DNA of 64,000 nucleotides, taken from contig DATDOV010000079.1 in assembly GCA_035293105.1 (NCBI GenBank), positions 101,574-165,573 on the forward strand, written 5' to 3'. The first letter of the stretch is position 1. Each line of letters starts with the position of its first letter. This stretch comes from Blastocatellia bacterium. Lineage in GTDB: Bacteria; Acidobacteriota; Blastocatellia; UBA7656. This document shows, one piece after another, positions 23,437 to 42,045 of this stretch. Both the position numbers and the translations under genes were made by a program. The notes beneath the pieces were generated by a model. The model was not told the DNA's origin. It ran no database searches and saw nothing but the letters and a program-made list of their open reading frames with translations.

Positions 23437-25203
<1,767 letters not shown>

Positions 25204-27260: not shown

Positions 27261-27455
27261 CGCCCATCGCAACGCGGGATCGGGGAGACGATGGAGTTGT
27301 GGCCGGGCGAATAACGAACTCAGGACACCAGTAGTCAGTCACGGTGATTGTGATCGAGCCCGCGCAAGATCGGCTAGTGAATCGCGTAGGGATCACCTGT
27401 ATCACGTGTCTATAGTCACCGGCTTCTTGTACAATACAAAGTCACGGAGGCAGAG

Positions 27456-27686
27456 ATGAGCATGAACCTCGAGGAACTAGAAACCGAGGCGCTACGCCTA
27501 GACCCGCAATCGCGCGCAAAACTAGCCGAACGGCTGTTGCACAGTCTGGACGATCTCTCGGATGAGGAGAACGAACGGCTGTGGGCCGAGGAGGCCCTGC
27601 GCCGCGAGGAGGAGATCGAGGCTGGCTTAGTCACGACGCGGCCAGCAGAGGAAGTGTACCGCGACGCACGGTCCAGGCTCAGATGA
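27456..27686 (+). CDS. addiction-module antitoxin (putative addiction module component family)
   Basis: MSMNLEELETEALRLDPQSRAKLAERLLHSLDD... typical of the small antitoxins paired with RelE/ParE-like toxins. Confidence 0.65.
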   Translation: MSMNLEELETEALRLDPQSRAKLAERLLHSLDDLSDEENERLWAEEALRREEEIEAGLVTTRPAEEVYRDARSRLR

Positions 27687-27907
27687 ACCGCCTACTGTCG
27701 TTCCATCCGGTGGCCGAGTACGAGCTATGCGAAGCGGCAGATTACTATGACCTTGAACGCCCAGGGCCAGGGAGAATCTTCCTTGATCAGGTAGAAAGTG
27801 CCACGAGCCAGATACTGCAATTTCCAGAAGCTGCGCTGGTTAATCGAGTCGGTCGCCGAGAGTTTCAGAGTGGGCGTTCGGATTTCCAAGAGCGAGGGCG
27901 TGACTAG
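27683..27907 (+). pseudogene. RelE/ParE-like toxin, C-terminally truncated remnant
   Basis: ATG overlaps the antitoxin stop (ATGA). N-terminal half (HPVAEYELCEAADYYDLERPGPGRIFLDQVESATSQILQFPEA) matches the toxin family. The C-terminal core (RRFPYGIIY...HGARD) is missing and the ORF ends early. Confidence 0.5.
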
Positions 27908-27930
27908 CTTTGGCTCTGTGAGGAGATGTC

Positions 27931-28192
27931 ATGCCGGAAATCAGCCGCTTTCTTGGCATCATCATCACGATGTATTTTAACGAGCACAACCCGCCGCATT
28001 TTCATGCACGCTACGGAGAACACAGGGCGGAGATCGCTATTCAAACCCTATCGATCATCGGCGGGAGGTTACCTCCCCGAGTGCTGGGGCTGGTTATGGA
28101 ATGGGCCGCTTTCGCATCGCGACGAACTAATGGAAGACTGGGAATTGGCCCGTCAGCAAACCGAGCTTAGACGGATTGCCCCACTGGAGTAA
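27931..28192 (+). pseudogene. DUF4160 protein with apparent frameshift
   Basis: N-terminus MPEISRFLGIIITMYFNEHNPPHFHARYGEH in one frame; family C-terminus ...HRDELMEDWELARQQTELRRIAPLE is in the +1 frame from about 28105. Confidence 0.55.
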
Positions 28193-28196
28193 ACCA

Positions 28197-28481
28197 ATGT
28201 TCCTTATCGACGTAGTAGATGTTAGGCCACTGGATGGTCATCAGCTTGAGCTAACGTTCAAGGACGGGCTGAAGGCCGTCGTGGATTTAGATCGGGTCAT
28301 TCGATCTTTCGAGGGAGTCTTCGCTCCGCTCAAAGATCCGGAGTATTTTCGACTGGTTCGTGTTGACACGGAGATTGGCACGATTGTCTGGCCCAACGGC
28401 GCTGACTTGTGCCCGGATGTGCTTTATTCCTATGCGTCCGGCAAGCCGATTATCGTGAACGGCGAGCGCGTCCTCAACTGA
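28197..28481 (+). CDS. DUF2442 protein (usual partner of DUF4160)
   Basis: MFLIDVVDVRPLDGHQLELTFKDG... about 95 aa. Confidence 0.6.
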   Translation: MFLIDVVDVRPLDGHQLELTFKDGLKAVVDLDRVIRSFEGVFAPLKDPEYFRLVRVDTEIGTIVWPNGADLCPDVLYSYASGKPIIVNGERVLN

Positions 28482-28874
28482 ATGAATCTGGGGACCTTTC
28501 GAGTGGGTTCGCCTCGCAAACCGGGCGACGGCTTGCGAGTCGGCACAGTGCGCTTTCTGCCGCGCGGAGTGAAGAAAGAAGACTACGCGCGACTGGACTA
28601 CTTCGACGTCTGGTTTCCGTTGCTGGCTCCAAGCTCGGAGCTGCTCAAGTGGCTGAAGAGCCGTGAGTGGCCAAGCGAGCAAGTGCGCTGGTCGAAGTTC
28701 AGAGAGCGCTACGTTGCCGAGATGAACAAGACCGACGCGCGTCAGGCTATCAAGCTTCTGGCAGAGCTAGCCAGAGCTACTTCGGTGAGCATAGGGTGTT
28801 ACTGTGAGGATGAGTCAGCCTGCCATCGCTCGACACTGCGGGCGTTGATAGAACGAGCCGCCATCTTGCCTTGA
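28482..28874 (+). CDS. DUF488 / YeaO-family protein (copy 1 of 3)
   Basis: ...RVGTVRFLPRGVKKEDYARLDYFDVWFPLLAPSSELLKW...GCYCEDESACHR aligns with E. coli YeaO ([36 protein letters not shown]). Confidence 0.75.
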   Translation: MNLGTFRVGSPRKPGDGLRVGTVRFLPRGVKKEDYARLDYFDVWFPLLAPSSELLKWLKSREWPSEQVRWSKFRERYVAEMNKTDARQAIKLLAELARATSVSIGCYCEDESACHRSTLRALIERAAILP

Positions 28875-28917
28875 GGAAGCTGGCCGCATGTCCTCAGCGG
28901 TGTATAATGAGCGAGCT

Positions 28918-29256
28918 ATGACAACCCTAGAGAATACTCAAGCCGTGCCCCTGACAGTCTGGGAAGACGGTTCGATTCGTGTCGCCGGCTCGCGGGTAAC
29001 GCTCGACTCGATTGTATATGAATTCAAGCTCGGCGCCACCGCGGAGCAGATCCTTCACAGCTTTCCGTCAGTTTCGTTGCGCGATATCTACGGCGCGATT
29101 TTCTATTACCTCAACAACACCGAGGTTGTCGAAGAGTACCTTGGTCACCGCGAACGGGGGGCGGAAGAGACGCGGTTGTTCATTGAGAGCCGCTTGGACA
29201 CGAGGTCCCTTCGCGAACGGATCCTGGCCAGGCGTGACCAGATGGTTGGCAGATAA
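28918..29256 (+). CDS. DUF433 protein (antitoxin-like partner of DUF5615)
   Basis: MTTLENTQAVPLTVWEDGSIRVAGSRVTLDSIVYEFKLGATAEQILHSFPSVSLRDIYGAIFYYL. Confidence 0.6.
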   Translation: MTTLENTQAVPLTVWEDGSIRVAGSRVTLDSIVYEFKLGATAEQILHSFPSVSLRDIYGAIFYYLNNTEVVEEYLGHRERGAEETRLFIESRLDTRSLRERILARRDQMVGR

Positions 29257-29286
29257 CGCGCGAGTCCGGCTACGCTTCGTGGCCTT

Positions 29287-29625
29287 CTGTTTGACGAAAA
29301 CTTCAATCATAGAATCGTACATGGGTTGCAATTGCGCCTGCCGGGTCTCGATTTCGTGATTGCTCAGGAAATAGAACTGAAGGGCGCCAAAGACCCGGAG
29401 TTGTTGGAGTGGGCCGCGACGCAGAACCGGGTCGTCGTCACGCATGACGTCGACACATTGTTGAAGTTCGCATACGAACGCATAGTTGGCGGCCAACTGA
29501 TGCCGGGCGTGATAGCCGTCCCACAGATCCTCCCGATAGGGCAAGCGATAGACGATCTGGCAACCGCCATCGAGTGCTCGGAGGCAAGCGATTTGGAGAA
29601 CTCAGTCTTGCACCTGCCTTTGTAA
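29287..29625 (+). CDS. DUF5615 (PIN-like) protein; start codon uncertain or non-canonical
   Basis: In-frame LLFDENFNHRIVHGLQLRLPGLDFVIAQE... begins right after the DUF433 stop. No ATG/GTG upstream; CTG at 29287 or TTG at 29326. Confidence 0.5.
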   Translation: MFDENFNHRIVHGLQLRLPGLDFVIAQEIELKGAKDPELLEWAATQNRVVVTHDVDTLLKFAYERIVGGQLMPGVIAVPQILPIGQAIDDLATAIECSEASDLENSVLHLPL

Positions 29626-29669
29626 CTGAAAGACGCGGGGACTGACTCGGGGCCGGCCTTGGATAAGAT

Positions 29670-29921
29670 ATGAAATACGAACTGTTCACCCGAGTCGCGC
29701 TGAATACCGATCTGCCGCGATACGGACTCCGCAGCGGGGACGTGGCAACGGTCATCGAGCACCATCCCGGACGGCCAGGCCAAGAGCCCGGCTACAGCCT
29801 TGAAGTGTCTAACGCGGTCGGGGAAACGGTCGCCGTGGTCACCGTCCGCGAGTCTCAGATCGTGCCGCTCAATGCCAACGAACCTTTGCATGTCCGCCTG
29901 CTGGCGGAAACGTCCCGCTGA
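29670..29921 (+). CDS. DUF4926 protein
   Basis: MKYELFTRVALNTDLPRYGLRSGDVATVIEHHP... 83 aa. Confidence 0.55.
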   Translation: MKYELFTRVALNTDLPRYGLRSGDVATVIEHHPGRPGQEPGYSLEVSNAVGETVAVVTVRESQIVPLNANEPLHVRLLAETSR

Positions 29922-29977
29922 TCGCTACCCGACGCGAATAGAACAGATGGACCGCGCCCGTCGGGGATCTGTTTAGG

Positions 29978-30382
29978 ATGCCGAGCTCCACGATAAATCT
30001 GGGAACGTTTCGAGTGGGCTCGCCTCGCAAGCGGGGCGAGGGCTTGCGAGTCGGCACAGTGCGCTTTCTGCCGCGCGGAGTGAAGAAAGAAGACTACGCG
30101 CGACTGGACTACTTCGACGTCTGGTTTCCGCTGCTGGCCCCAAGCTCGGAGTTGCTCCGATGGATGAAGAGCCGCGAGTGGCCAACCGAGCAAGTCAGGT
30201 GGTCGAAGTTCAGAGAGCGCTACACTGCCGAGATGAACAAGACCGCCGCCCGCCAGGCGATCAAGCTTCTGGCAGAGTTAGCCAGAGCGACGCCGTTGAG
30301 CATAGGGTGCTACTGCGAGACCGAGTCAGCCTGTCATCGCTCGATACTGCGTGAGTTGATTGAAAACGCGGCAGGCGAGTAG
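29978..30382 (+). CDS. DUF488 / YeaO-family protein (copy 2 of 3)
   Basis: About 90% nt identity to 28482-28874 over the whole gene. Confidence 0.75.
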   Translation: MPSSTINLGTFRVGSPRKRGEGLRVGTVRFLPRGVKKEDYARLDYFDVWFPLLAPSSELLRWMKSREWPTEQVRWSKFRERYTAEMNKTAARQAIKLLAELARATPLSIGCYCETESACHRSILRELIENAAGE

Positions 30383-30452: not shown

Positions 30453-30896
30453 TCATTTCACGTCGGCCGGAGAGACGGCAGTGATTCCTGGATAGCGCTT
30501 GAAGTCGGCTACGTTGAATGTAAGCAGATGCGTGATGCCATACACATTCATCGAAGCGACAAGCTTGGCATCGTGAACCTCAACGCCCATCACCGAGTGA
30601 GTTACAACAAGCCGCCGCCATTCCTGGAAGGTCGCTAGACTGTCCGGGAGCAAACGAAAGTAGCGTTCAATCAGACGCGCTTTTCGTTCTGTTTGAGTCA
30701 ATGAAAGGCTGAGCCCGCCGCGCGCCGAAGCCGGACGAGTACCGACGTTCCAGAACTCGCTCAGGACCTGTGGAGTGAAACAAAGAACTTCATTTCGCGA
30801 GCGGAGCCTTCGCAGAGCATCAAGAGCCATTTGGCGCTGCGGATCGTTGCGGTGGGCCAGCCGGAGAAACAGATTCGTATCGAAAAGATAGGCCAT
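30453..30896 (-). CDS. vapC: PIN-domain toxin (VapC-like)
   Basis: MAYLFDTNLFLRLAHRNDP... acidic PIN residues (D5, E, D, N/D). Confidence 0.75.
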   Translation of the reverse strand: MAYLFDTNLFLRLAHRNDPQRQMALDALRRLRSRNEVLCFTPQVLSEFWNVGTRPASARGGLSLSLTQTERKARLIERYFRLLPDSLATFQEWRRLVVTHSVMGVEVHDAKLVASMNVYGITHLLTFNVADFKRYPGITAVSPADVK

Positions 30897-31159
30897 CAGT
30901 CGTGGTCGAAGTAGATGTCGGCGCGCGAATAGCTCCCGGAGTAAGCTGGCAGATGCTCCGTTCCTTCGGCAAACGCTTGCATGTCCGCTTCAAACTCAGC
31001 GTCGTTCGCGGGAGCGGGCGCTGATAATTCATCAACTGATCGGGTTGCGCTGGCTTGCACAAGGCTCTCGACAAAGGACTTCACATCCAGGCCATACGCC
31101 TTAGCCCTTTGTTCCAAAATGTGTCTCACGTCTTCGGGAACTGAAATCGTTAATTCCAT
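30896..31159 (-). CDS. VapB-like antitoxin
   Basis: 87-aa ORF whose stop overlaps the vapC start. MELTISVPEDVRHILEQRAKAYGLDVKSFVESLV. Confidence 0.55.
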   Translation of the reverse strand: MELTISVPEDVRHILEQRAKAYGLDVKSFVESLVQASATRSVDELSAPAPANDAEFEADMQAFAEGTEHLPAYSGSYSRADIYFDHD

Positions 31160-31398: not shown

Positions 31399-31588
31399 TC
31401 TCATTAACACCTCACTTCAGTGAGGTGCCCTCGACCGAGCGGATCCCCCAACCGTTTCAACGGTTTCCTCTCTCGCAGTCGTCTTTCAAACTCGAAGTCT
31501 TCGGATTCCATGAGCGCAAACCGTTAAAACGGTTCAGGGGATCCGCCGAGCCAAGAGCACCTCACTGAAGTGAGGTGTTAATGAGAAC
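31399..31588. mobile_element. ~190-bp near-perfect palindromic MITE-like element
   Basis: Left end tctcattaacacctcacttcagtgaggtg and right end cacctcactgaagtgaggtgttaatgaga are reverse complements. Each end is itself a hairpin. Inner nested inverted repeats (gatcccccaaccgtttcaacggtt / aaccgttaaaacggttcaggggatcc). Confidence 0.6.
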
Positions 31589-31733
31589 CGATGTTCCCGC
31601 GAGCCTTGACGTCCCAGTTTTGATCACATCCCCAAACCGTGACGCGCACCCCGATCAGACGGCTCGGCCACGCAACCAAGTAGATGTTCGTAGTACCGGC
31701 TTCAGATGAAATCATGGCCTTGGCGTCGGCATA

Positions 31734-32048
31734 GTGCGCTTTCTGCCGCGCGGAGTGAAGAAAGAAGACTACGCGCGACTGGACTACTTCGACGTCTGGT
31801 TTCCGCTGCTGGCCCCAAGCGCTGAGTTGCTCACTTGGCTGAAGAGCCGCGAGTGGCCGAGCGAGCAAGTCAGATGGTCGAAGTTCAAAGAGCGCTACGT
31901 TGCCGAGATGAACAAGACCGACGCGCGGCAGGCTATCAAGCTTCTGGCCGAGTTAGCCAGAGCTACTCCGTTGAGCATAGGGTGTTACTGCGAGAACGAG
32001 TCAGCCTGTCATCGCTCTATGCTGCGTGAGTTGATCGAAGAGCCCTGA
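31734..32048 (+). pseudogene. DUF488 / YeaO-family protein (copy 3), 5'-truncated
   Basis: Homology to copies 1 and 2 starts at codon ~25 (RFLPRGVKKEDYARLDYFDVWFPLL...). First ~25 codons are replaced by unrelated sequence next to the palindromic element. Confidence 0.6.
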
Positions 32049-32136: not shown

Positions 32137-33057
32137 ATGAAAAGCCTTGGTTCAGCCGGCAGCCTACCTTTGTTTGATGAATCTGCAGACGGCAACCCTC
32201 TTGAACATCAATCCGAGAAGCCCGAAAAGACTTCGCCCTTTAGCGACCTTGATCTGAATCGCTGGCGCGAATATGAAGACATCGTTACCGACTCGCTGTG
32301 GCTCATACCAGAACGGGACCGGACTGGCGCGCATCTCGCGGACTATCACGGAAACTTTGTTCCTCAAATCCCCTATCAGGCGATGCGGCGGTTTACGAAA
32401 CGCGGAGATGTTGTGCTCGACGCATTCTTGGGTTCCGGCACGACCCTCATCGAATGTCGCAGACTAGGGCGACACGGAATCGGCGTTGAGCTTAAGCCAG
32501 AGCTTGCAAAGCAAGCAGCCGACCGTATCGCGAGCCAAGGCAATCGCTACCAGGTCAAGACAGAGGTGCTGACGTCAGATAGTTGTGATCCCGTAAAGAC
32601 TCCTGGAGTCATTTCGCAGAGTCTTGAAACCATCGGCAAGGATTCAGTGCAGCTTGCAATACTTCATCCTCCGTATCATTCAATAATTAGGTTCTCTGAT
32701 CGTGCGGATGATCTGTCTAATTGCCCTACGGTTGACGTGTTTCAAAAAACGTTTGGCCGAGCGGTTGATGTAGTGACTCCATTCCTCGACATAGGCCGCT
32801 ATCTGGTCTTGGTCATCGGTGATATGTATGCTGGCAGCGAATGGATTCCTCTTGGATTTCGGTGCATGAACGAGATAATGGAGCGCGGGTACACTCTGAA
32901 GAGCATCGTCGTTAAAGATATGCAAGGAAATCGGGCTAAACGAAATCTGGAGAACATCTGGCGCTATCGCGCGCTAGTCGGCGGCTTCTACATCTTCAAG
33001 CACGAGTACGTCATGTTTTTCAGGAAGGGCAGAACGAATGGCCGAACTGCCATTTAG
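32137..33057 (+). CDS. N6-adenine or N4-cytosine DNA methyltransferase (R-M)
   Basis: Motif I VVLDAFLGSGTT; motif IV LHPPY (D/N/S-PP-Y variant). Confidence 0.8.
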   Translation: MKSLGSAGSLPLFDESADGNPLEHQSEKPEKTSPFSDLDLNRWREYEDIVTDSLWLIPERDRTGAHLADYHGNFVPQIPYQAMRRFTKRGDVVLDAFLGSGTTLIECRRLGRHGIGVELKPELAKQAADRIASQGNRYQVKTEVLTSDSCDPVKTPGVISQSLETIGKDSVQLAILHPPYHSIIRFSDRADDLSNCPTVDVFQKTFGRAVDVVTPFLDIGRYLVLVIGDMYAGSEWIPLGFRCMNEIMERGYTLKSIVVKDMQGNRAKRNLENIWRYRALVGGFYIFKHEYVMFFRKGRTNGRTAI

Positions 33058-35820: not shown

Positions 35821-36852
35821 ATGAGCAACAAAACCGATTCAACGGCTGTTGACGATCTCGTCGACGGCCAGTGGCTTGAAGATATCGATGCGGCGCTGCC
35901 TCAGGCGGTCGCCGAGGCCACAGTAGATGGACGGCTGCCCGCGAAAGCTCAACACCTGAAAGTTCAGGTTGGGTTTCGCGAATTGCCGGACGGGCACGAG
36001 GTCAAGTTCAAGGCCTCACTTACGAATACACTGCTGGAAGTGTTCGAATGGGCAGCGCAGGAACTCGGGAAACCTCTACTACCTCCCGCCAGCAACCAGC
36101 CGCTCGATCTATTGCGCTGTCGGGAGCGACACGGCGACGGCTGGAGCGAGCCTATCACAGGCCTCGACCGGCCGCTCTGGCTCGTGTTGGTTGAAAGCTG
36201 CTCTCGACATTTCGGAATCGAATATGTGCTGGCTGTTAAGATCAACACGAAGTGGGCCGTAGCACCGTCCGCAAAAATGACGCCGCGCGAGCTGCTCACT
36301 AGCTTTGGGTTTGATCCCTCTCAATTCAGCCTGTACAAGCCCGATAGCACGGAGCCGCTGCCGGCGGACACGCCGATCCCTCTTCATCGAGGAGAGAGGT
36401 TTGAAGCGCAGAAGGACGGGAAGTATGGAGCGTCGGTGATGGCAGAGCGTCCGGCGCGCGGCTCACAGACGATCGACGATGATCTGGAAGGAATAAGGGA
36501 GGCGGGTATCGACGCCCGCCTCCTCGACTCCAACGGACAAAAGTACGCCGAGGTGAAGGGAATAGCGGTACCGTCGCCTCCTTGGTCTCTGGACAGGCTC
36601 ACACTGCTGTTCGCTATTCCGGCTACGTACCCGACAGGCGGGCTCGACGCGTTCTACATCGAGTTGCCCGTTAGCCACGCTAGCGGTTCCGTTCCGTACC
36701 AATCTCAGACCGCGCAGATCGATGGCAGATCGTGGGGGCTGATCTCATGGCACTATCCGACCGGGCGGCCCTGGAACCCGTCGCATGACGATCTTTCTAC
36801 TCATATCGAGCATTGTCGTGGAGCATTGATGAGGCGTGGGGTGACGCAGTGA
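35821..36852 (+). CDS. multi-ubiquitin (tandem beta-grasp) domains fused to prokaryotic E2-like (UBC-fold) domain
   Basis: Two Ub-like repeats (HLKVQVGFRELPDGHEVKFKASLTNTLLEVFEWAAQELG; LAVKINTKWAVAPSAKMTPRELLTSFGFDPSQFSLYKPDS...IPLHRGERFEA). C-terminal E2-like region (...LLFAIPATYPTGGLDAFYIELPV...ISWHYPTGRPWNPSHDDL...). Confidence 0.55.
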   Translation: MSNKTDSTAVDDLVDGQWLEDIDAALPQAVAEATVDGRLPAKAQHLKVQVGFRELPDGHEVKFKASLTNTLLEVFEWAAQELGKPLLPPASNQPLDLLRCRERHGDGWSEPITGLDRPLWLVLVESCSRHFGIEYVLAVKINTKWAVAPSAKMTPRELLTSFGFDPSQFSLYKPDSTEPLPADTPIPLHRGERFEAQKDGKYGASVMAERPARGSQTIDDDLEGIREAGIDARLLDSNGQKYAEVKGIAVPSPPWSLDRLTLLFAIPATYPTGGLDAFYIELPVSHASGSVPYQSQTAQIDGRSWGLISWHYPTGRPWNPSHDDLSTHIEHCRGALMRRGVTQ

Positions 36853-36854
36853 AA

Positions 36855-38246
36855 ATGCGAATGACCGAACACCACTACCATGAGGTAAAGCGACTTACGT
36901 CTCCTTCCTTCTTGGATGGCATCCGGTTTCCTCCCGAGACAGGTTGCATCGTTTTAGTCGGGCGGAATAATCATCCAACGTATCCGTCAGTCGTAGTGGC
37001 CGATGTGCTGGCGCCCGAGGACGGAGAGTTGATTGAGCGAGAGAGTGATGGTCTCGTCTTCGCGAGCAAGTATTTGCGGCGCGCTCTGTTTCGATTGCGT
37101 GAGAAAGGGCTGGCGGGCTTCCTCACAGTCCACACCCACCCGTTCTCGGACACGCGTGTGAACTTTTCTCCCTATGATGACGCGAATGATCCCTCGCTGA
37201 TGGCAAATCTGTACGAGCTTGAGCCCCACGGCATTTTCGGCAGCATCGTGATGGGCAAAAGATCGGCGAGAGCTCGATTGTGGAATCCGGACGGAGATGG
37301 CTACCGCACACTCGAACCGATGATCATCGTCGGTGAGCGACTGCAATTCTTCAACGCTAATGGTGCCGAGGCCGAGGCGGAACCACAGGCAGCGGAGATC
37401 TTCGACCGCGGCTTGTCGATCACAGGTAGCGGCGCGTTAGCGCGACTCGCCTGCATGCGTGTTGGTCTGATCGGCAGCAGCGGAACCGGCTCTATTATGG
37501 CCGAATTGCTGATGCGCGCCGGTGTTGGCGAGATACTGCTTTTTGAGCCTGACTATGTGGAAGAACCCAACCTGAACCGGATGCTCCATTCCCGGCAGCG
37601 CGACGCGGAAGCTCGTGTAGGAAAGGCGTCCCGGCTGGCTGAAGCTCTTGCCGAGGCTGGTATGCCCACTCAGATCACGGTCGCCTCGGGCGGTGACATA
37701 CGCCGCGAGGAGGTAGCACTTGAGCTACGAGGTTGCGATTTGGTGATTGGTTGTGTTGATCGAGACTGGCCGCGCCTAATACTTTGCGAACTAGCTTATC
37801 AATACTTGATTCCGTACATAGACCTGGGAACAGAGATCGGTTTCGATGGGATTGAGATTCAGAGCCTCGATTCTCGCGTTTCGTATGTTGCGCCTGGTCG
37901 TCCTTGTCTTCTGTGTTCTGGCGTGGTGTCAACCGAGCGCCTTAGGCTGGAAGCACTAGAAGACAGCGAGCGAGACAGAGTTATCGCAATGGGTTACTCG
38001 GAAGACATTAGGCTCATCGCGCCTGCGGTCATGGATCTAAACATGCGCGCTGCCTCTTATGCGATGCTCGTTGTACGTCATCTCCTCCAGCCGTTCCTCG
38101 ATAGGCCGCTGCCGACTCATATCAAAGAATCAATCACTAACTTCAGTGTTCGACGAGTGACCAGTACCCAGAATTCGGACTGTCACGTCTGTGATGGTTC
38201 GAGGCTTGGAGTCGGAGACGCGCGCCGTTTGTCCACGGCTCGTTGA
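36855..38246 (+). CDS. JAB/MPN metalloprotease domain fused to E1-like ThiF/MoeB adenylyltransferase
   Basis: N-terminal JAMM-like motif LAGFLTVHTHPFSD...S..D. C-terminal Rossmann GLIGSSGTGSIMAELLMRAGVGEILLFEPDYVEEPNLNRM with CLLCSG and CHVCDG zinc pairs. Start immediately after the upstream stop. Confidence 0.7.
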   Translation: MRMTEHHYHEVKRLTSPSFLDGIRFPPETGCIVLVGRNNHPTYPSVVVADVLAPEDGELIERESDGLVFASKYLRRALFRLREKGLAGFLTVHTHPFSDTRVNFSPYDDANDPSLMANLYELEPHGIFGSIVMGKRSARARLWNPDGDGYRTLEPMIIVGERLQFFNANGAEAEAEPQAAEIFDRGLSITGSGALARLACMRVGLIGSSGTGSIMAELLMRAGVGEILLFEPDYVEEPNLNRMLHSRQRDAEARVGKASRLAEALAEAGMPTQITVASGGDIRREEVALELRGCDLVIGCVDRDWPRLILCELAYQYLIPYIDLGTEIGFDGIEIQSLDSRVSYVAPGRPCLLCSGVVSTERLRLEALEDSERDRVIAMGYSEDIRLIAPAVMDLNMRAASYAMLVVRHLLQPFLDRPLPTHIKESITNFSVRRVTSTQNSDCHVCDGSRLGVGDARRLSTAR

Positions 38247-38719
38247 TCGTTCTGACTGACTGGAACGCCAATCTTGGGCACGCAGACACGCCGCCGCCAT
38301 ACCCTTTGATCATCCTAATCCAGAACCCAGACGCCGCTTTCGCGAATTGCATCGTACATCGCGTCTGGTGCAAGATCACCACCGTTCGGCCACTGCACCA
38401 CACCCATAACCACTCGCGCTCCGGCAAATACGGCGGCTCGCGTAGCGGCTCGAACACTGTGCCGTCGATCTCAGAGCTGCTGAGAAACGCTCGCATATCT
38501 ACGTTCCCCGGCGTGCCATCGCCGAATCTTACGTGCAATTCCGGGAACGCAAAGACGCGAGAATCTCTAAGATCGCCAAGTGTGCTACCGCTTCAGTCCG
38601 TCACTAGAGGCTCGCGGCGGATTGTTCAGACATAGCCTACAACCAGAGAGACATCTCTCTTCGATTCGCGCTTCTATTCCTACCTTTGTGTTACAATCTC
38701 GCGAAAGGAGCGGAGCCAA

Positions 38720-38953
38720 ATCATTTCCGAGCAAGCCGAGAAAATCCTCGAACAGGCTTTGCAGTTGCCTTCCTCGCAACGCGCAGACCTGGTCGAGCGT
38801 TTGTTGGACAGTCTTGCGTTCGAAACTGACGAACGCATCGATGCGCTGTGGGCTGCCGAGGCCGAGAGTCGCATAGCTGCTTTTCGCCGGGGCGAGTTGT
38901 CGGCGGTACCGTCAGAAGACGTCTTTGCTGAGATCGAAGCGGAGGCTAATTGA
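38720..38953 (+). CDS. addiction-module antitoxin; probable non-ATG (ATC/ATT) start
   Basis: IISEQAEKILEQALQLPSSQRADLVERLLDSLAFETDERIDALWAAE... AAGGAG sits 9 nt upstream of ATC at 38720. First canonical start is an internal TTG at 38759. Confidence 0.5.
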   Translation: MISEQAEKILEQALQLPSSQRADLVERLLDSLAFETDERIDALWAAEAESRIAAFRRGELSAVPSEDVFAEIEAEAN

Positions 38954-39240
38954 AGGTTCAATTCCTCGAACCGGCCAAAGCCGAGTTGAAGGAAGCAGTC
39001 CGCTACTACAACCACCAGAGAGAAGGTCTCGGGCTCGAATTCGCCGCTGAAGTCAGAAAGGCAACTCAGCGAATCGCGAAGCTGCCGAAGGCCTCGCCAC
39101 CAATCTCAGGTGGCGCTAGAAGGTTTCTTCTTCGCAGGTTCCCTTACGGAATCATTTTATCTGGTCGAAGACAAAACGGTGCTTATTGTTGCTGTAATGC
39201 ATCTAGCGCGCGATCCTGTAGTCTGGCAGGAACGGCTGAA
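38950..39240 (+). pseudogene. RelE/ParE-family toxin with +1 frameshift
   Basis: KVQFLEPAKAELKEAVRYYNHQ...RRFLLRRFPYGI, then the conserved tail IYLVEDKTVLIVAVMHLARDPVVWQERLK is in another frame (shift at a T-run near 39160). Confidence 0.6.
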
Positions 39241-39412
39241 GTGACTCGATTATCGTGGCTAGGCTCCGCACCCGCCTCACGATCGAGCTTCCAGTCAAGG
39301 CTAGCGCTCAAAGGCACGGTCGTGGGCCGACTGCTTTGGTTCATGTGGTTCGTCCAACTCCGTGTAGCCACACAGAGCCGAGTCGAGTATACTCGCCAGC
39401 AAGGAGTAGGTC

Positions 39413-39664
39413 ATGACAACGATGTTTCCCATACCTCCGCCGGGGTTTGACCAGCTTTCAGTAGACGAGCAGATCCACTTCGTCGAGTCGCTGTGGGACC
39501 GAATCGCAGTGCATGCCGAACGGGTGCCGGTTCCCGACTGGCATCGCCACGTGCTCGCCGAAAGACTCGCCGCGTATGAGAGCGATCCCGACGCAGGTAA
39601 GCCGTGGGAGGAGGTCCGGGACGAACTCCAGCGAGAACTCCGAGACATTGATCGCCGGAAATGA
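39413..39664 (+). CDS. addiction-module antitoxin
   Basis: MTTMFPIPPPGFDQLSVDEQIHFVESLWDRIAV...DWHRHVLAERLAAYESDP. Confidence 0.6.
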   Translation: MTTMFPIPPPGFDQLSVDEQIHFVESLWDRIAVHAERVPVPDWHRHVLAERLAAYESDPDAGKPWEEVRDELQRELRDIDRRK

Positions 39665-39946
39665 CCAAACAGCGCGTGATCATCCGGCCCGAGGCGCAGC
39701 AGGACCTCCGCGAGGCGGCGCTGTGGTATGAGACTCCCAGGCCGGGCCTCGGAGAGCGTTTCGCAACCAAGATCGAGGGGTTGATCGAGCGAATAGCCGA
39801 CAAAGCCTCGCCAATTCCCTGAGATCGCCCACGGAGTCCGCCGGGCTTGGCTACAGGCATTTCCGTATTCGGTTTACTTCGTCGAATCTCCCGGCACCGT
39901 TTCGCTCATCGCCATTCTTCACCAGCATCGCCACCCCGATACCTGA
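39661..39946 (+). pseudogene. RelE/ParE-family toxin with frameshift
   Basis: MTKQRVIIRPEAQQDLREAALWYE... stops after ...ASPIP. Conserved tail QFPEIAHGVRRAWLQAFPYSVYFVESPGTVSLIAILHQHRHP continues in another frame. Confidence 0.55.
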
Positions 39947-40074
39947 AGCAAATAGACGATCATTATTCACTGGTTGAAACTGGTTGATTATCCACTGACC
40001 CTGGCAGATAATCCGCCACTTGACCGGTGCATGAGAAGCTAGAGGCAGACCGACGTTGCTCTAAACTAGGGGAT

Positions 40075-41088
40075 ATGGAAAACGAACCGCTGGGGCATTC
40101 TGAGATCATCCTCTACCAAACCGAGGACAAGCGTACTCGGATCGAGGTCAGGCTTGAGGACGAGACTGTCTGGCTCAGTCAAAGCCAGATGGCCGAGTTG
40201 TTCCAGACCACCAAACAAAACATCAGCCTCCACGTTAGGAACATCTTCGCTGAGCACGAATTGCAGGAGGACCAAGTTGTCAAGGAATACTTGACGACTG
40301 CAGCCGACGGCAAGAAATACGCAACCGGCCACTACAACCTCGATGTCATCATCTCCGTAGGTTATCGCGTCAAGTCCCACCGCGGCACTCAGTTCCGCAT
40401 CTGGGCGACTCAACGCCTGAGGGAGTACCTGATCAAAGGCTTCGCGCTGGACGATGAGCGGCTCAAAGAAGGCGGCACGAAGAACACTTACTTCGATGAA
40501 CTGCTGGCCCGGATCAGGGACATCCGCGCCTCCGAGAAGAACTTCTACCGCAAGGTCCTGGACATCTACGCGACAAGCATCGACTACGACCTACACTCGG
40601 ATGTCTCTTACGACTTCTTTGCGATCGTTCAAAACAAGATGCACTGGGCGGCGCACGGCCACACCGCAGCCGAGTTGATCGCCGAACGGGCCGACGCCGA
40701 TAAGCCCAATATGGGATTAACCTCCTGGAAAGACCCGAAGGTGCGAAAGTCGGACGTGACCGTCGCAAAGAACTACCTCAACGCCGACGAGATCGAAATC
40801 CTGAATCTGATCGTGAGTCAGTACCTGGACTTCGCCGAGCTTCAGGCCAGAATGAAGAAGGCGATGTACATGCGCGACTGGGTGCGCAAGCTGGACGATT
40901 TTCTGAGAGTGAATGAGCGGGAAATATTGAAGGACGCAGGTAAGATCTCGCATCAGCTTGCTCAGCAGTTGGCCGAAGCTGAGTACGACAAGTTCGAAAA
41001 GAAGCGGTTGGCGGCGGAATCCGAAGCCCCTAACAAGGACTTCGAGGAAGCGGTGAAGACACTCACCTCGCGAAAGCGGAAGAGGTAG
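40075..41088 (+). CDS. RhuM-family (Fic/DOC-related) virulence/defence-associated protein
   Basis: MENEPLGHSEIILYQTEDKRTRIEVRLEDETVWLSQSQMAELFQTTKQNISLHVRNIF... characteristic RhuM N-terminus. Confidence 0.8.
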   Translation: MENEPLGHSEIILYQTEDKRTRIEVRLEDETVWLSQSQMAELFQTTKQNISLHVRNIFAEHELQEDQVVKEYLTTAADGKKYATGHYNLDVIISVGYRVKSHRGTQFRIWATQRLREYLIKGFALDDERLKEGGTKNTYFDELLARIRDIRASEKNFYRKVLDIYATSIDYDLHSDVSYDFFAIVQNKMHWAAHGHTAAELIAERADADKPNMGLTSWKDPKVRKSDVTVAKNYLNADEIEILNLIVSQYLDFAELQARMKKAMYMRDWVRKLDDFLRVNEREILKDAGKISHQLAQQLAEAEYDKFEKKRLAAESEAPNKDFEEAVKTLTSRKRKR

Positions 41089-41384
41089 GCGACACACGCA
41101 CCGATCCGTGCGGCTGCCGGAGTTTGCTGTGAGCTCGCGTGCGGCTGTTTGTTGTCCAATCACTGGTCGCGTCCCGGTCGAGACTGCAACAAGAATGGAT
41201 AGAATTGCGATTGCCCCGGCGCGTCGATGAATTCTGACCGCGCTCGATGTCTTACGCAAAGTTGCGGTTGTTGCGCCAGCCATTCCCGGCCTCCTTAGGT
41301 GGCTACCCTGCCACACTATACACGGACGCAAAACCGGGGCATTTCAATGCATATTCTTTTCGAATCGTACGCGAGAGGGCTTAG

Positions 41385-41717
41385 TTATGAAGTCAAACCG
41401 CGAGGACTCATAGTAGTCCTCGATAGTCTCGTGCGCCGTGAATGATCCGATGAACGAAGATCGTTTGCTCCTCGCAAGTGTAAAAAGATCAGGTAATCCT
41501 GAACGACCAAATAGCGATAACCGAGATCAACCAGCGACGCATCACCAGATACGCGTCCCAGGTATGGGTTCAACGCCAACAGCCTCAGGTTCTTCTCGAT
41601 TCTCTGCGCAAGTGCTTCGGCGGCTTCCGGTCTTTGAGCCGCAATGTAGGTGACGATCTCAGTGAAGTCGTCCTCCGCTGCCCTCAAGAGCCGGACCGTG
41701 TGCTTACGCCGCTTCAC
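41385..41717 (-). pseudogene. RelE/ParE-family toxin with frameshift at a T5 run
   Basis: ...LGYRYLVVQDYLIF then the frame drifts. The +1 frame gives the canonical YTCEEQTIFVHRIIHGARDY tail. Confidence 0.6.
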
Positions 41718-41976
41718 GGATTCTCTTTCGCAGATCTTTCATCACTTGTGAGACCGTCCGGCCTCGGTCGCCACATGCTCGCTGAGCTTGCGCCACCGCT
41801 AGCTTGCTGAAGAGTTCGACTTTGAGTTGAAGCTTGCTGTAATGAGCCATCGACATAACAACCATGTCGCCCTCACCGTTCCTCGTGATGAAGATCGGCT
41901 CATCGATAGTCTCGGCTAGATCAGAGATCTGGTTCGCTTTGTTCCGCAAGTCGGAAATGGGTTTTATGACGGGCAT
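41704..41976 (-). CDS. Phd/YefM-family antitoxin
   Basis: MPVIKPISDLRNKANQISDLAETIDEPIFITRNGEGDMVVMSMAHYSKL. Confidence 0.7.
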   Translation of the reverse strand: MPVIKPISDLRNKANQISDLAETIDEPIFITRNGEGDMVVMSMAHYSKLQLKVELFSKLAVAQAQRACGDRGRTVSQVMKDLRKRIREAA

Positions 41977-42045
41977 CTTCAATCTCCTTCTACCGCGCTG
42001 CAAAATTATATCACTTAAAGATAAAGGAAAGGGGCCAAGGCGATT

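What the first reader, a model, noticed from the sequence alone, without database searches (positions are those of the whole stretch)
27400..42040. Lower-GC accessory island densely packed with addiction/defence modules
Between the ornithine cyclodeaminase gene and the radical-SAM gene, composition shifts and gene content changes to small modules. These are: antitoxin/ParE (x3); DUF4160/DUF2442; DUF433/DUF5615; VapBC; Phd/RelE; three DUF488 copies; an R-M pair; the ImmA triad; the Ubl operon; RhuM; and a palindromic MITE. No integrase or tRNA is visible at the edges. A copy cluster of the GTAGTAACGAATTC repeat sits ~1.2 kb outside the left edge (26070-26245).
Basis: seen in the sequence. Interest (0 to 1): 0.6.

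Follow-up and report, generated by a model that had tools for sequence, protein, structure and literature searches.

The report
Accessory defence island at genomic hotspot
A 14.8-kb lower-GC stretch between two conserved convergent genes of a soil Acidobacterium (class Blastocatellia) is a real accessory island: mostly broken toxin-antitoxin genes around one intact, horizontally travelling block (a restriction-modification pair plus a ubiquitin-like conjugation operon with an unusual regulator trio). It is an ordinary kind of island with one interesting component.

Summary
The segment between the ornithine cyclodeaminase (OCD) stop (27260) and the radical-SAM stop (42046) has GC 0.555 against 0.617 in the flanks. 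It has no tRNA or integrase, and nearly all the listed modules are there.

Comparative data settle the interpretation. In 21 related Blastocatellia loci OCD and the radical-SAM gene are convergent neighbours. The gap is 19-350 bp in 8 loci. In the other 13 it is 1.7-8.9 kb of completely different cargo (TIR-NACHT, Mrr, AbiEii, BlaI/BlaR and others). The site is therefore an insertion hotspot, and this is the largest fill seen.

- At least seven toxin-side genes are frameshifted or truncated, identically in independent assemblies from eight samples.
- The "ImmA triad" and the "Ubl operon" are one divergent unit. It is a Type I Bub-like pair (BubAB, BubCD) that lacks BubE. It is controlled by a CapP-type peptidase, a divergent ECF-like sigma factor and a 150-aa protein that takes CapH's position.
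- Two back-to-back TGCCAG-N16-CGCT motifs lie between the two operons.
- This unit plus the restriction-modification pair forms a 6.1-kb block found in other genomic contexts elsewhere.
- The GTAGTAACGAATTC repeat occurs elsewhere in the window and is unrelated to the island edge.

The parts
26295..27260 (+). Left core flank: ornithine cyclodeaminase (OCD), convergent with the radical-SAM gene
   Evidence: Pfam OCD_Mu_crystall 4.5e-65. It is next to the radical-SAM gene in 21 related loci.
27270..27314 (+). Relic copy of the OCD 3' end (QRGIGETMELWPGE*), in frame just after the OCD stop. A recombination scar at the left junction.
   Evidence: tblastn of the OCD C-terminus against the island: 9/14 identical, E 1.5e-4, the only such relic. 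An analogous relic occurs in L006 9645-9716.
27456..27907 (+). Antitoxin (Unstab_antitox, 27456-27686) plus a truncated ParE-like gene (27683-27907, 74 aa)
   Evidence: Pfam 2.7e-11 for the antitoxin. The ParE-like ORF has no Pfam hit and lacks the C-terminal half.
27931..28481 (+). DUF4160 (frameshift near 28110) and DUF2442 (28176-28481, intact)
   Evidence: The repaired DUF4160 covers Pfam profile positions 1-65 of 65, E 5e-23. DUF2442 scores 3e-16.
28482..28874 (+). DUF488-N3a copy a
   Evidence: Pfam 3.4e-37. Repeat family D1.
28888..29625 (+). DUF433 (28888-29256) plus DUF5615, a PIN-like gene with a frameshift near its start (about 29287)
   Evidence: The repaired DUF5615 gives profile positions 3-57, E 4.6e-11.
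29670..30382 (+). DUF4926 (29670-29921) and DUF488-N3a copy b (29978-30382)
   Evidence: Pfam 4.7e-16 and 6.8e-37.
30453..31159 (-). PIN-domain VapC (intact) and an upstream 87-aa putative VapB
   Evidence: PIN 2.5e-9 over profile positions 1-118 of 120. VapB is assigned by position only, with no family hit.
31399..31586 (.). 188-bp palindromic element with 50-nt arms (88% complementary) and nested 20-nt palindromes
   Evidence: Single copy in the window and in the 173 loci searched.
31668..32048 (+). DUF488-N3a copy c, with an in-frame stop and a deletion at the N-terminus. The ORF runs from an internal GTG at 31734.
32137..33685 (+). Type II restriction-modification pair: N6/N4 methyltransferase (306 aa) and endonuclease (215 aa, weak IceA/NlaIII-like match)
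   Evidence: PADLOC MTase_II 5.4e-103 and REase_II 4e-39. Pfam ICEA 1.7e-4. Conserved next to the CapP trio in L088.
33728..34510 (-).
   Evidence: PADLOC capP 1.6e-55 over the full length. Best PDB match is 7t5t CapP, 6e-19. The HELGH motif and the cysteine aligned with the CapP cysteine-switch loop are both present.
34507..34959 (-). 150-aa helical protein in the position of CapH: the candidate CapP substrate, proposed anti-sigma factor
   Evidence: No Pfam, PADLOC, NCBIfam or PDB match. Eight homologues only. Always sits between the sigma-like gene and CapP. Its N-terminal motif is fused to the peptidase in L091.
34974..35561 (-). Divergent ECF-type sigma factor (195 aa)
   Evidence: The AlphaFold2 model has two helical domains and a disordered linker. 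The top 10 Foldseek PDB matches, and most of the top 25, are ECF sigma factors; the rest are other sigma factors or sigma-like PhyR domains (SigH, E 8e-3, probability 1.0). JGI names homologues 'sigma24 family'.
35584..35661 (.). Two back-to-back promoter-like motifs TGCCAG-N16-CGCT: 35584-35609 on the minus strand (towards the sigma gene) and 35636-35661 on the plus strand (towards bubAB)
   Evidence: These are the only two matches in 64 kb, with 0.18 expected. The same pair occurs in every homologous locus. Variant hexamers with the same N16-CGCT occur in L089 and L091.
35821..36852 (+). BubAB: a Ubl (residues 1-203, ending ...FEAQKDGKYG) fused to a Prok-E2_E domain (D276, S309-W-H311)
   Evidence: Pfam Prok-E2_E 3.4e-11. 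PDB Citrobacter BubB 4.6e-3. Standalone homologues end at the KYG glycine.
36849..38246 (+). BubCD: a JAB/JAMM peptidase fused to an E1 adenylation domain (465 aa)
   Evidence: PDB 9ea4 Citrobacter BubCD 4.6e-37. E28, HTH...SPYD and the tyrosine aligned with catalytic Y370 are present. The start is set by homologues.
38318..38583 (-). Frameshifted DUF2442 remnant with no DUF4160 partner
38759..39241 (+). Antitoxin 2 (38759-38953) plus ParE2 with a frameshift at about 39157
   Evidence: Unstab_antitox 5.4e-17. The repaired ParE covers profile positions 1-88 of 89, E 6e-10, whereas the ORF as read has no hit.
39413..39943 (+). Antitoxin 3 (39413-39664) plus ParE3 with a frameshift at about 39803
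   Evidence: The repaired ParE covers profile positions 1-88 of 89.
40027..41088 (+). RhuM-family protein (PADLOC candidate defence family PDC-S05), intact. The likely start is the ATG at 40075.
   Evidence: Pfam 6.9e-114. PADLOC PDC-S05 1e-145.
41411..42003 (-). Phd/YefM antitoxin (41704-42003) plus a ParE/RelE-family toxin with a frameshift at about 41483
   Evidence: The repaired toxin covers profile positions 1-89 of 89, E 3e-17, against 1-72 as read.
42046..43554 (-). Right core flank: B12-binding radical-SAM enzyme
   Evidence: Pfam. 73-82% identical orthologues in about 160 loci.

Best explanation
The interval between the convergent core genes OCD and B12-radical-SAM is a recombination hotspot in Blastocatellia. 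In this lineage it has been filled stepwise with 14.8 kb of foreign, lower-GC DNA that carries no mobility genes of its own.

The island has three layers:
1. A left array of small modules (27.4-32.05 kb): ParDE-like, DUF4160/DUF2442, DUF433/DUF5615, VapBC and three DUF488 paralogues.
2. An intact 6.1-kb block (32.1-38.25 kb).
3. A right array (38.3-42.0 kb): a DUF2442 remnant, two ParDE-like pairs, RhuM and a Phd/ParE-like pair.

In the two arrays the toxin-side gene is usually inactivated while the antitoxin is kept. These are therefore mostly spent addiction modules.

The working part is the central block, which moves horizontally as a unit. It holds a Type II restriction-modification pair and, convergent to it, a regulator operon (ECF-like sigma factor, 150-aa protein, CapP peptidase). 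That operon is divergently arranged with a two-gene ubiquitin-like conjugation operon: BubAB (a Ubl-E2 preprotein) and BubCD (a JAB-E1 fusion).

Proposed mechanism (inferred):
- DNA damage or phage-derived ssDNA activates CapP.
- CapP cleaves the 150-aa protein, which takes the place of the repressor CapH and probably holds the sigma factor inactive.
- The freed sigma factor fires the two back-to-back TGCCAG-N16-CGCT promoters. This amplifies its own operon and switches on bubAB-bubCD.
- The JAB domain cuts BubAB after G203.
- E1 and E2 then conjugate the Ubl to targets through Tyr/Ser oxyester intermediates, as shown for Citrobacter Bub.

Shown here: composition, gene identities, catalytic residues, pseudogenisation, hotspot variability, portability of the block, and conservation of the motif pair.
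Inferred: direction and mode of acquisition, the sigma/anti-sigma/protease logic, and any antiphage role.
For: Hotspot:
- There are 21 related loci with the OCD/radical-SAM pair. Gaps are 19-350 bp in 8 loci and 1.7-8.9 kb in 13.
- No island protein has a homologue in any of them.
- The other fills are TIR-NACHT, TIR-WD40-Ras, Mrr+RAMA+Uma2, AbiEii, kinase-PD40 and BlaI/BlaR.

Composition: 0.555 against 0.617, the minimum of all 14.8-kb windows.

Recombination scars: OCD 3'-end relics lie at the window's left junction and in L006, where the relic flanks an AbiEii-like gene.

Sequence is real:
- Contigs from eight samples were compared with the window. The left part was covered by contigs from five samples and the right part by contigs from six.
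- They match it 100% over 26223-43664, apart from a single base at 28265 in L004. One of these contigs may be the window's own source.
- All frameshift sites are included.

Pseudogenes: repairing single frameshifts restores full-length Pfam coverage for ParE2, ParE3, ParE4 and DUF4160, and extends the Pfam match for DUF5615 and the second DUF2442.

Portable block:
- L088 carries methyltransferase, endonuclease, CapP, the 150-aa protein, sigma factor, BubAB and BubCD next to different core genes.
- L086 and L092/93 carry the five-gene part next to RepB-primase, SSB and ArdC-N genes.
- Block GC is about 0.54-0.55 everywhere.

Identities:
- BubCD matches the solved Citrobacter BubCD at 4.6e-37, with E28, the JAMM motif and the Y370-equivalent tyrosine.
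- BubAB has the conserved ...DGKYG end of the Ubl and the D/S-x-H E2 residues.
- CapP.
- Sigma factor.

Regulation:
- The TGCCAG-N16-CGCT pair is unique in the window and present in all homologous loci. The hexamer changes while N16-CGCT is kept in distant members.
- In L174 a canonical HTH CapH plus CapP sits upstream of a homologous BubAB/BubCD. The sigma factor plus the 150-aa protein therefore occupy CapH's functional slot.
- The 150-aa N-terminal motif is fused to the peptidase in L091.

Literature:
- 31% of Bub operons carry CapH+CapP (PMC11601596).
- 24 CBASS systems have capH, capP and a sigma-70-family gene (bioRxiv 10.1101/2022.04.27.489752).
Against: - No genome closer than 82% amino-acid identity was found. 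Gain rather than loss is therefore inferred from composition and cargo diversity, not from an empty allele in the same species.
- The GC shift is moderate, and some left-array genes (antitoxin 1, DUF4926, DUF488b) are near host GC.
- An OCD relic is seen only at the left edge. It lies immediately next to OCD, not at the far end of the island, so it does not delimit the present island.
- The 150-aa protein has no recognisable fold (pLDDT 56.5). It could be a cryptic HTH repressor rather than an anti-sigma factor.
- The sigma assignment rests on a medium-confidence model (pLDDT 68.5, TM about 0.3) and weak E-values.
- No Bub operon has yet been shown to protect against phage (PMC11601596).
- BubE, said to be present in all Bub operons, is missing here.
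Confidence: 0.8

Rival explanations
1. The segment is a degraded integrative element (prophage, ICE or integrase-type genomic island) that inserted once by site-specific recombination into the 3' end of OCD and later lost its integrase.
For: A relic of the OCD 3' end lies directly after the OCD stop. L006 has a similar relic with a gene between the relic and OCD. In L086 and L092 the Bub block sits beside RepB-primase, SSB and ArdC-N genes typical of conjugative elements.
Against: There is no integrase, transposase, tRNA or phage/conjugation gene among the ORFs of the 27.3-42.0 kb interval that I scanned. There is no matching repeat at the right end. The island is mosaic in GC and in state of decay, and only its central 6.1 kb recurs elsewhere. 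That fits several events better than one.
Confidence: 0.12
2. The region is ancestral and has been lost differentially in the other Blastocatellia. It would then be a variable core region, not acquired DNA.
For: The closest available relatives are only about 80% identical, so polarity cannot be read directly. Several left-array genes have near-host GC3.
Against: Thirteen other lineages carry unrelated cargo at the same site, and eight have essentially no spacer. The central block is found in different genomic contexts with its own GC. Island GC is the window minimum.
Confidence: 0.05
3. The middle protein of the regulator trio is a CapH-type DNA-binding repressor with an undetectable HTH. CapP de-represses in the classical way, and the sigma factor is an accessory or cargo gene. 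The inverted CTGGCAG/CTGCCAG repeat is the operator.
For: Lau et al. listed the middle gene as capH in 24 sigma-containing CBASS loci. Residues 30-60 (ETAKDVLKACGVDSSDLVSKL) resemble a helix-turn-helix by eye. The two hexamers form an inverted repeat.
Against: No HTH, CapH or PDB match was found by Pfam, PADLOC, NCBIfam or a profile search, and the fold search was uninformative. The distance between the two arms varies by about 11 bp among homologues, while the distance from each arm to CGCT is invariably 16. That is promoter geometry, not the geometry of a dimeric operator.
Confidence: 0.3
4. The array of small same-strand genes is an integron-like cassette array (a CALIN) and not a random accretion.
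For: There are many short, promoterless-looking, same-orientation toxin-antitoxin genes from 27456 to 30382, as in chromosomal superintegrons.
Against: Spacers between modules are 13-57 bp (27907/27931, 28874/28888, 29625/29670, 29921/29978), too short for attC sites. The only repeats found are the DUF488 coding sequences themselves and one large palindrome. No IntI-like gene is present.
Confidence: 0.03

Closest known systems
Defence islands and core-genome insertion hotspots
   Same: A fixed site between conserved core genes holds different defence or addiction cargo in different lineages. It shows a compositional shift and often has no integrase of its own. (The concept is from my own knowledge, not checked in a paper here.)
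   Different: The host is an uncultured Blastocatellia lineage. This fill is dominated by decayed toxin-antitoxin modules. Relics of the OCD 3' end point to recombination at that gene's end.
Type I Bub (6E.1 / 'DUF6527') operon, Ye et al. 2024, PMC11601596
   Same: A Ubl-E2 fusion with a conserved glycine at the junction and Asp/Ser-x-His E2 residues. A JAB-E1 fusion with an intact JAMM site and the crossover-loop tyrosine. Association with a CapP-type regulator.
   Different: There is no BubE (DUF6527) gene here or in the homologous loci L086, L092/93 and L175, although BubE is stated to be in all Bub operons. BubCD here has CxxC...CxxC motifs that the Citrobacter enzyme lacks.
CapH+CapP (related to DdrO/IrrE and ImmR/ImmA), Lau et al. 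2022 and PMC13228613
   Same: An M78 peptidase with the full-length CapP profile, HExxH and the cysteine-switch position. It is encoded divergently upstream of an immune-type operon.
   Different: The HTH repressor CapH is replaced by a 150-aa protein with no detectable HTH plus an ECF-like sigma factor. The output is probably activation by sigma release, not de-repression. The sigma association was noted in one sentence for 24 CBASS loci but never analysed.
DdvS/DdvA ECF sigma / anti-sigma control of a CBASS-CRISPR island in Myxococcus (PMC11506125)
   Same: An ECF-type sigma factor and its antagonist gate transcription of a defence locus.
   Different: DdvA is a transmembrane anti-sigma factor. 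Here the candidate antagonist is cytoplasmic and is paired with an ssDNA-sensing cytoplasmic peptidase.
CapK+CapS regulators placed downstream of restriction-modification systems (PMC13373217)
   Same: The layout is a restriction-modification system, then a DNA-damage-sensing regulator, then Bub. The restriction-modification pair is conserved next to the regulator in L088 as well.
   Different: The regulator chemistry differs: a peptidase and sigma factor instead of a kinase and STAS repressor.
Chromosomal type II toxin-antitoxin loci (ParDE, VapBC, Phd/RelE, DUF4160/DUF2442, DUF433/DUF5615)
   Same: Two-gene architecture, small size and family assignments.
   Different: All four ParE/RelE-type toxins, plus DUF4160, DUF5615 and a second DUF2442, are frameshifted or truncated. 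Every antitoxin-type gene that has a family assignment reads intact.

Membership tests
Type I Bub (6E.1) operon | BubAB: a Ubl fused to an E2, with a conserved glycine at the processing site | tested here: met
   Prok-E2_E matches residues 220-336. Standalone homologues of residues about 40-203 end at ...DGKYG plus 0-8 residues. This places the junction at G203.
Type I Bub (6E.1) operon | E2 catalytic Ser-x-His plus Asp (Citrobacter D299, S333, H335) instead of Cys | tested here: met
   D276 aligns with D299. S309-W-H311 (LISWHY) matches S333-R-H335 and is conserved in homologues as LVSWHY.
Type I Bub (6E.1) operon | BubCD: a JAB/JAMM peptidase fused to an E1 adenylation domain, with the JAMM residues and a crossover-loop tyrosine | tested here: met
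   phmmer against PDB 9ea4 gives 4.6e-37 over residues 54-420. E28, H-T-H...S-P-Y-D and the tyrosine in MGYSED aligned with Y370 are all present.
Type I Bub (6E.1) operon | BubE (DUF6527 serine protease) encoded in the operon | tested here: not met
   The ORFs downstream of bubCD gave no Pfam hit as read, and what can be identified there is a frameshifted DUF2442 remnant on the opposite strand. A six-frame scan for DUF6527 remnants was not run. None of the precomputed Pfam lists for the genes next to BubCD in L086, L092/93 and L175 contains DUF6527.
Type I Bub (6E.1) operon | ATP-dependent Ubl-target conjugation through oxyester intermediates | not testable with these tools
   Needs biochemistry.
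CapH+CapP regulator | CapP: M78 peptidase, HTH and GAF domains with HExxH and a cysteine switch | tested here: met
   PADLOC capP 1.6e-55 over profile positions 4-240 of 242. PDB 7t5t 6e-19, with HELGH and the aligned Cys.
CapH+CapP regulator | CapH: a small HTH repressor encoded next to capP | tested here: not met
   The gene in that position (34507-34959) has no HTH or CapH match in Pfam, PADLOC, NCBIfam or a PDB profile search. Its model is low-confidence and helical.
CapH+CapP regulator | ssDNA-stimulated cleavage of the partner protein | not testable with these tools
   Needs a cleavage assay.
ECF (group 4) sigma factor | A two-domain sigma2-linker-sigma4 fold | tested here: inconclusive
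   Pfam is negative. The AlphaFold2 model has pLDDT 68.5. The Foldseek top 10 hits, and most of the top 25, are ECF sigma factors, but E is 0.008-1 and TM about 0.3. JGI names homologues sigma24.
ECF (group 4) sigma factor | Autoregulated cognate promoter with conserved -35 and -10 elements at fixed spacing | tested here: inconclusive
   TGCCAG-N16-CGCT lies upstream of the sigma gene and of bubAB. It is unique in the window and conserved in homologous loci. No transcription data are available.
Integrase-type genomic island | Integrase gene, a tRNA or other att target, and flanking direct repeats | tested here: not met
   There is no tRNA and no integrase or transposase domain among the ORFs scanned. 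Only a left-side OCD relic is present, with no partner at the right edge.
Genomic island / hotspot (operational definition) | Deviant composition, and presence/absence or cargo polymorphism between conserved flanks | tested here: met
Type II restriction-modification system | Adjacent methyltransferase and endonuclease, both intact | tested here: met
   PADLOC 5.4e-103 and 4e-39. Motif I (FLGSGTT) precedes motif IV (HPPY) in the translation. Specificity is untested. CATG observed/expected is 0.72, which is only suggestive.
Functional ParDE / RelBE-type toxin-antitoxin modules | An intact toxin ORF | tested here: not met
   ParE1 is truncated. ParE2, ParE3 and the Phd-linked ParE/RelE toxin are frameshifted. 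They are identical in independent assemblies.
MITE | Multiple dispersed copies with terminal inverted repeats and target-site duplications | tested here: inconclusive
   Inverted repeats and a strong hairpin are present. Only one copy exists in the window and in about 2.5 Mb of related loci. The host genome itself was not available.

The most novel reading that the evidence does not exclude
The sigma-like protein, the 150-aa protein and CapP form a three-part switch that has not been characterised. An ssDNA-activated cytoplasmic peptidase would destroy an anti-sigma factor (instead of an HTH repressor) and release a private ECF-like sigma factor. That factor would drive two back-to-back cognate promoters (hexamer-N16-CGCT).

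The switch is modular. It is attached to Bub, CBASS and VWA-PP2C-kinase cargo in different genomes. The Bub it controls here is a distinct two-gene subtype that works without the BubE deconjugating protease.
Probability: 0.4. Interest if true: 0.65.

Novelty: new member of a known kind. Interest (0 to 1): 0.45.

Why it matters
As an island it is ordinary, but it is cleanly documented. It shows a defined insertion hotspot (OCD/radical-SAM) in Blastocatellia, a poorly studied soil class. It also gives a snapshot of toxin-antitoxin decay in which toxins die first and antitoxins persist.

The useful lead is the central block. It extends the Bub ubiquitin-like family to a BubE-less form. It also points to a sigma-factor-based output for the CapP DNA-damage sensor, with a concrete promoter motif and a candidate protease substrate that can be tested directly. 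If confirmed, it would show that the same ssDNA sensor can be wired either to de-repression (CapH) or to sigma-factor release.

Tried and rejected
- tRNA and Rfam scans of the whole window found nothing.
- A sigma-70 consensus scan of 33.6-38.8 kb found no site in the divergent intergenic region.
- Sequence searches for the 150-aa protein gave no assignment: Pfam at E up to 0.5, PADLOC, NCBIfam and a PDB profile search. Its AlphaFold2 model was low confidence, and the fold search returned only noise.
- A PDB profile search with the sigma-like family gave only a marginal FliA region-4 hit. The structure route was needed.
- The metagenome scan for closer relatives of the radical-SAM gene found nothing above 82% identity, so no empty allele in the same species could be shown.
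- Literature searches on DUF488 gave nothing useful about the triplicated gene.
- The integron idea was rejected on spacer lengths and the lack of repeats.
- A search for remnants of the pentapeptide-repeat protein that follows BubCD in L086 found nothing in the window.
- The CATG depletion test for the guessed NlaIII-like specificity was weak (observed/expected 0.72, third lowest of 16 palindromic tetramers).
- The idea that the GTAGTAACGAATTC cluster marks the island edge was rejected, because the same repeat occurs 22 kb to the left and 12 kb to the right of the island.

Full report
1. WHAT IS AT THE COORDINATES

The compositional shift is real. One-kb bins from 27 to 42 kb have GC 0.51-0.58, and almost all others 0.59-0.65. 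The interval between the OCD stop (27260) and the radical-SAM stop (42046) has GC 0.555 against 0.617 for the rest. The lowest-GC 14.8-kb window of the 64 kb begins at 27300. GC3 of island genes is mostly 0.55-0.70, against 0.75-0.80 for the core neighbours.

These are:
- three Unstab_antitox/ParE-like pairs;
- DUF4160/DUF2442;
- DUF433/DUF5615;
- PIN plus a putative VapB;
- Phd plus a ParE/RelE-family toxin;
- three DUF488-N3a copies (about 89-91% nucleotide identity by BLAST, homology confined to the coding sequence);
- a Type II methyltransferase and endonuclease;
- an M78 peptidase with two unknown genes;
- an E2 and a JAB-E1 gene;
- RhuM.

There is no tRNA, Rfam family, integrase or transposase. 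The 188-bp palindrome at 31399-31586 folds into a very stable hairpin (z = -13.5). It is single-copy in all the sequence I could reach.

2. THE SITE IS A HOTSPOT

The radical-SAM protein identifies the host as a Blastocatellia-like acidobacterium. The best matches are 82% identical.

In 21 related loci that carry both genes, OCD and the radical-SAM gene are convergent neighbours.
- The gap is 19, 22, 27, 51, 85, 166, 248 or 350 bp in eight loci.
- It is 1.7-8.9 kb in thirteen.
- At 14.8 kb, the window has the largest fill.

Not one island protein has a homologue in any of those gaps. The other fills hold the following:
- TIR-NACHT STAND proteins with SEC-C proteins;
- a TIR-WD40-Ras protein;
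- Mrr+RAMA+Uma2;
- AbiEii-like nucleotidyltransferases;
- a Ser/Thr kinase-PD40 protein;
- BlaI/BlaR;
- a TylF methyltransferase.

A 14-codon relic of the OCD C-terminus (QRGIGETMELWPGE*, compared with ERGVGETIDLWPKE*) lies in frame right after the OCD stop. In L006 a 24-codon relic of that genome's OCD end lies about 900 bp inside the fill, with an AbiEii-like gene between the relic and OCD. Such duplicated gene ends are what single-crossover (Campbell-type) or site-specific insertion at the 3' end of OCD would leave. I take them as scars of the insertion process (inference).

3. THE SEQUENCE IS NOT AN ASSEMBLY ARTEFACT, AND THE TOXIN-ANTITOXIN CONTENT IS LARGELY DEAD

Contigs from eight samples were compared with the window. 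One of them may be its own source. The samples are four ENA assemblies, three Logan runs and one JGI metagenome. They match it 100% over 26223-43664, apart from a single base at 28265 in L004. Otherwise only the 45-nt tandem repeat at 26089-26222 varies.

Three-frame reading shows that many toxin-side genes are broken:
- ParE2, frameshift at about 39157;
- ParE3, at about 39803;
- the Phd-linked ParE/RelE toxin, at about 41483;
- DUF4160, at about 28110;
- DUF5615, at about 29287;
- a second DUF2442 at 38318-38583 on the minus strand;
- DUF488 copy c, which has an in-frame stop near its start;
- ParE1, which lacks its C-terminal half.

Joining the two frames restores full-length Pfam coverage. 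For example, ParE_toxin covers profile positions 1-89 of 89 at 3e-17 after repair, against 1-72 before. ParE2 goes from no hit to 1-88 of 89. DUF4160 reaches 1-65 of 65 at 5e-23.

The three Unstab_antitox antitoxins, Phd, DUF433, the first DUF2442, PIN, DUF488 a and b, and RhuM read intact. By contrast the whole central block is intact, with lengths equal to those of its homologues.

4. THE 'ImmA TRIAD' AND THE 'Ubl OPERON' ARE ONE SYSTEM

The JAB-E1 protein (true start 36849, set by homologues) matches the solved Citrobacter BubCD at 4.6e-37. It keeps E28, the JAMM H-x-H...S-x-x-D motif and the tyrosine aligned with catalytic Y370.

The E2 protein is a BubAB-type fusion.
- Residues 220-336 are Prok-E2_E. 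They align weakly with Citrobacter BubB, and D276 and S309-W-H311 match D299 and S333-x-H335.
- A search of 1.84 billion representatives found 202 relatives. Many are standalone proteins of 165-208 aa that match residues about 40-203 and end at ...FEAQKDGKYG plus 0-8 residues. This places the Ubl C-terminal glycine at G203.

This is the Type I Bub (6E.1) architecture of Ye et al. (PMC11601596), with one exception. BubE (DUF6527), stated to be present in all Bub operons, is absent here. It is also absent from the precomputed Pfam lists for the genes next to BubCD in L086, L092/93 and L175.

The 'ImmA' gene is a CapP. PADLOC capP scores 1.6e-55 over the full length. The best PDB hit is CapP 7t5t, with HELGH and the cysteine-switch position.

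Its operon (sigma-like gene, 150-aa gene, capP, on the minus strand) is divergent from bubAB-bubCD. This is the usual placement of CapH+CapP, which accompany 31% of Bub operons.

5. THE REGULATOR IS A VARIANT

The gene in CapH's position encodes a 150-aa helical protein.
- It has no HTH or any other match.
- It has only eight homologues in 5.8 billion clusters.

The first gene encodes a 195-aa protein.
- Homologues are named 'sigma24 family' by JGI.
- Its AlphaFold2 model has two helical domains and a disordered linker (pLDDT 68.5). Foldseek retrieves ECF sigma factors as all of its top 10 PDB hits and most of its top 25 (SigH, RpoE, SigL, AlgU, SigW, SigK, CnrH, sigmaE). The best is E 8e-3 with probability 1.0.

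The trio is conserved with different cargo:
- BubAB/BubCD in L086/87, L088 and L092/93;
- VWA-PP2C-kinase plus a Type III restriction-modification system in a JGI contig;
- a SMODS/S_4TM CBASS in L091, where the N-terminal motif of the 150-aa family is fused to the peptidase.

A homologous BubAB/BubCD in L174 instead has a canonical HTH CapH plus CapP. So the sigma factor plus the 150-aa protein replace CapH functionally.

Footprinting of the intergenic region shows two back-to-back copies of TGCCAG-N16-CGCT, one facing each operon.
- They are the only two matches in the 64 kb, with 0.18 expected.
- The same pair is found in every homologous Bub locus. Only six singletons occur in the other 161 loci.
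- L089 has TGCCAT/TGCCAA.
- The distant L091 has TGTAAT-N16-CGCT, again as a divergent pair.

Constant spacing from hexamer to CGCT, together with variable arm-to-arm spacing, is promoter geometry. No sigma-70 consensus promoter is present there.

My model is as follows. ssDNA activates CapP, which cleaves the 150-aa protein. That releases the sigma factor, which fires both promoters. I rate the anti-sigma version at about 0.4 and a cryptic-repressor version at about 0.3.

Lau et al. noted a sigma-70-family gene beside capH and capP in 24 CBASS loci without further analysis. ECF/anti-sigma control of a defence island is known from Myxococcus.

6. THE CENTRAL BLOCK TRAVELS

L088 carries the methyltransferase, the endonuclease (split there into two ORFs), CapP, the 150-aa protein, the sigma factor, BubAB and BubCD. 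They are 74-87% identical in amino acids (sigma-like protein 58%) and 76% in nucleotides, and sit next to unrelated core genes. L086 and L092/93 carry the five-gene part beside RepB-primase, SSB and ArdC-N genes.

The block keeps GC of about 0.54-0.55 while host flanks range from 0.54 to 0.62.

A restriction-modification system sitting next to a DNA-damage-sensing regulator and Bub echoes the R-M/CapK+CapS/Bub layout reported in PMC13373217. The endonuclease has a weak IceA/NlaIII-like match. CATG is mildly under-represented (observed/expected 0.72). This is suggestive only.

7. VERDICT

This is an integrase-less accessory island at a lineage-wide insertion hotspot. It is a new member of a well-known kind.

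It is mostly a graveyard of addiction modules around one intact, portable defence-type block.

The part worth follow-up is that block's regulator and its BubE-less Bub pair. These are variants of described systems, and they come with a concrete, testable promoter and protease-substrate hypothesis.

Noticed in passing
window 26080-26222; also 4076-4153 and 53842-53919: The 45-nt tandem repeat between the phosphatase gene and OCD is, apart from one base at 28265 in L004, the only place where same-species contigs differ from the window (copy and sequence variation). Its GTAGTAACGAATTC core also occurs as two inverted pairs about 64 bp apart elsewhere. It looks like an interspersed, REP-like repeat family rather than an island-edge feature.
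   Followed up: partly
window 27270-27314; L006 9645-9716: Relic copies of the OCD 3' coding end lie inside the hotspot fill in two independent genomes. In L006 the relic and the real gene end bracket an AbiEii-like gene. This suggests insertion by recombination at the OCD 3' end.
   Followed up: partly
L006 10026-10592, L008 3912-4478, L094 3606-4172, L097 15144-15710: A 188-aa ORF lies at or near the OCD-proximal end of the fill in four different genomes. The L008 copy matches Pfam AbiEii, and the L006 copy is visibly similar in its N-terminal sequence. It appears to be a recurrent first cargo at this hotspot.
   Followed up: no
window 28482-28874, 29978-30382, 31668-32048: There are three paralogous DUF488-N3a genes. 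Homology starts at the start codon and ends about 20 nt before the stop, so the flanks are not shared. Each follows a small two-gene module. Why this gene is triplicated inside a toxin-antitoxin array is unexplained.
   Followed up: partly
window 31399-31586: A 188-bp perfect-looking hairpin element with nested 20-nt palindromes (CACCTCACTTCAGTGAGGTG) lies just upstream of the damaged DUF488 copy c. It is single-copy in all available sequence.
   Followed up: partly
L091 7677-10314: A CBASS (three SMODS genes plus S_4TM) is divergent from a sigma-like gene. It also has a 557-aa protein whose N-terminus carries the 150-aa family motif fused to an M78 peptidase and a further C-terminal domain. 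Its own TGTAAT-N16-CGCT promoter-like pair is present, and IS elements lie next door.
   Followed up: partly
JGI 3300041967 contig (no DNA held): The same sigma/150-aa/M78 trio sits upstream of a VWA-PP2C-protein kinase set and a Type III restriction-modification system.
   Followed up: no
L086 4846-6648: In one homologous locus a 600-aa pentapeptide-repeat protein with a hydrophobic C-terminus follows bubCD on the same strand. It may be an effector or a BubE substitute. There is no trace of it in the window.
   Followed up: partly
window 37900-38246 (BubCD residues ~353-356 and ~450-455): BubCD here carries CxxC...CxxC motifs (GRPCLLCSG and DCHVCDG), typical of Zn-binding MoeB/ThiF/Uba5-type E1s. 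The first motif is absent from the aligned region of the Citrobacter enzyme.
   Followed up: no
L088 3611-4276: The orthologue of the island's restriction endonuclease is split into two ORFs (88 and 128 aa) in L088, while the methyltransferase is intact. Decay of the restriction-modification system seems to have begun there.
   Followed up: no
window 43725-44460 and 23437-26023: The genes beyond the OCD/radical-SAM pair (MerR plus a thioredoxin-like gene on one side, a tyrosine phosphatase and an acyl-CoA ligase on the other) are not conserved next to the pair in the related loci. Only the two-gene pair itself is syntenic.
   Followed up: partly
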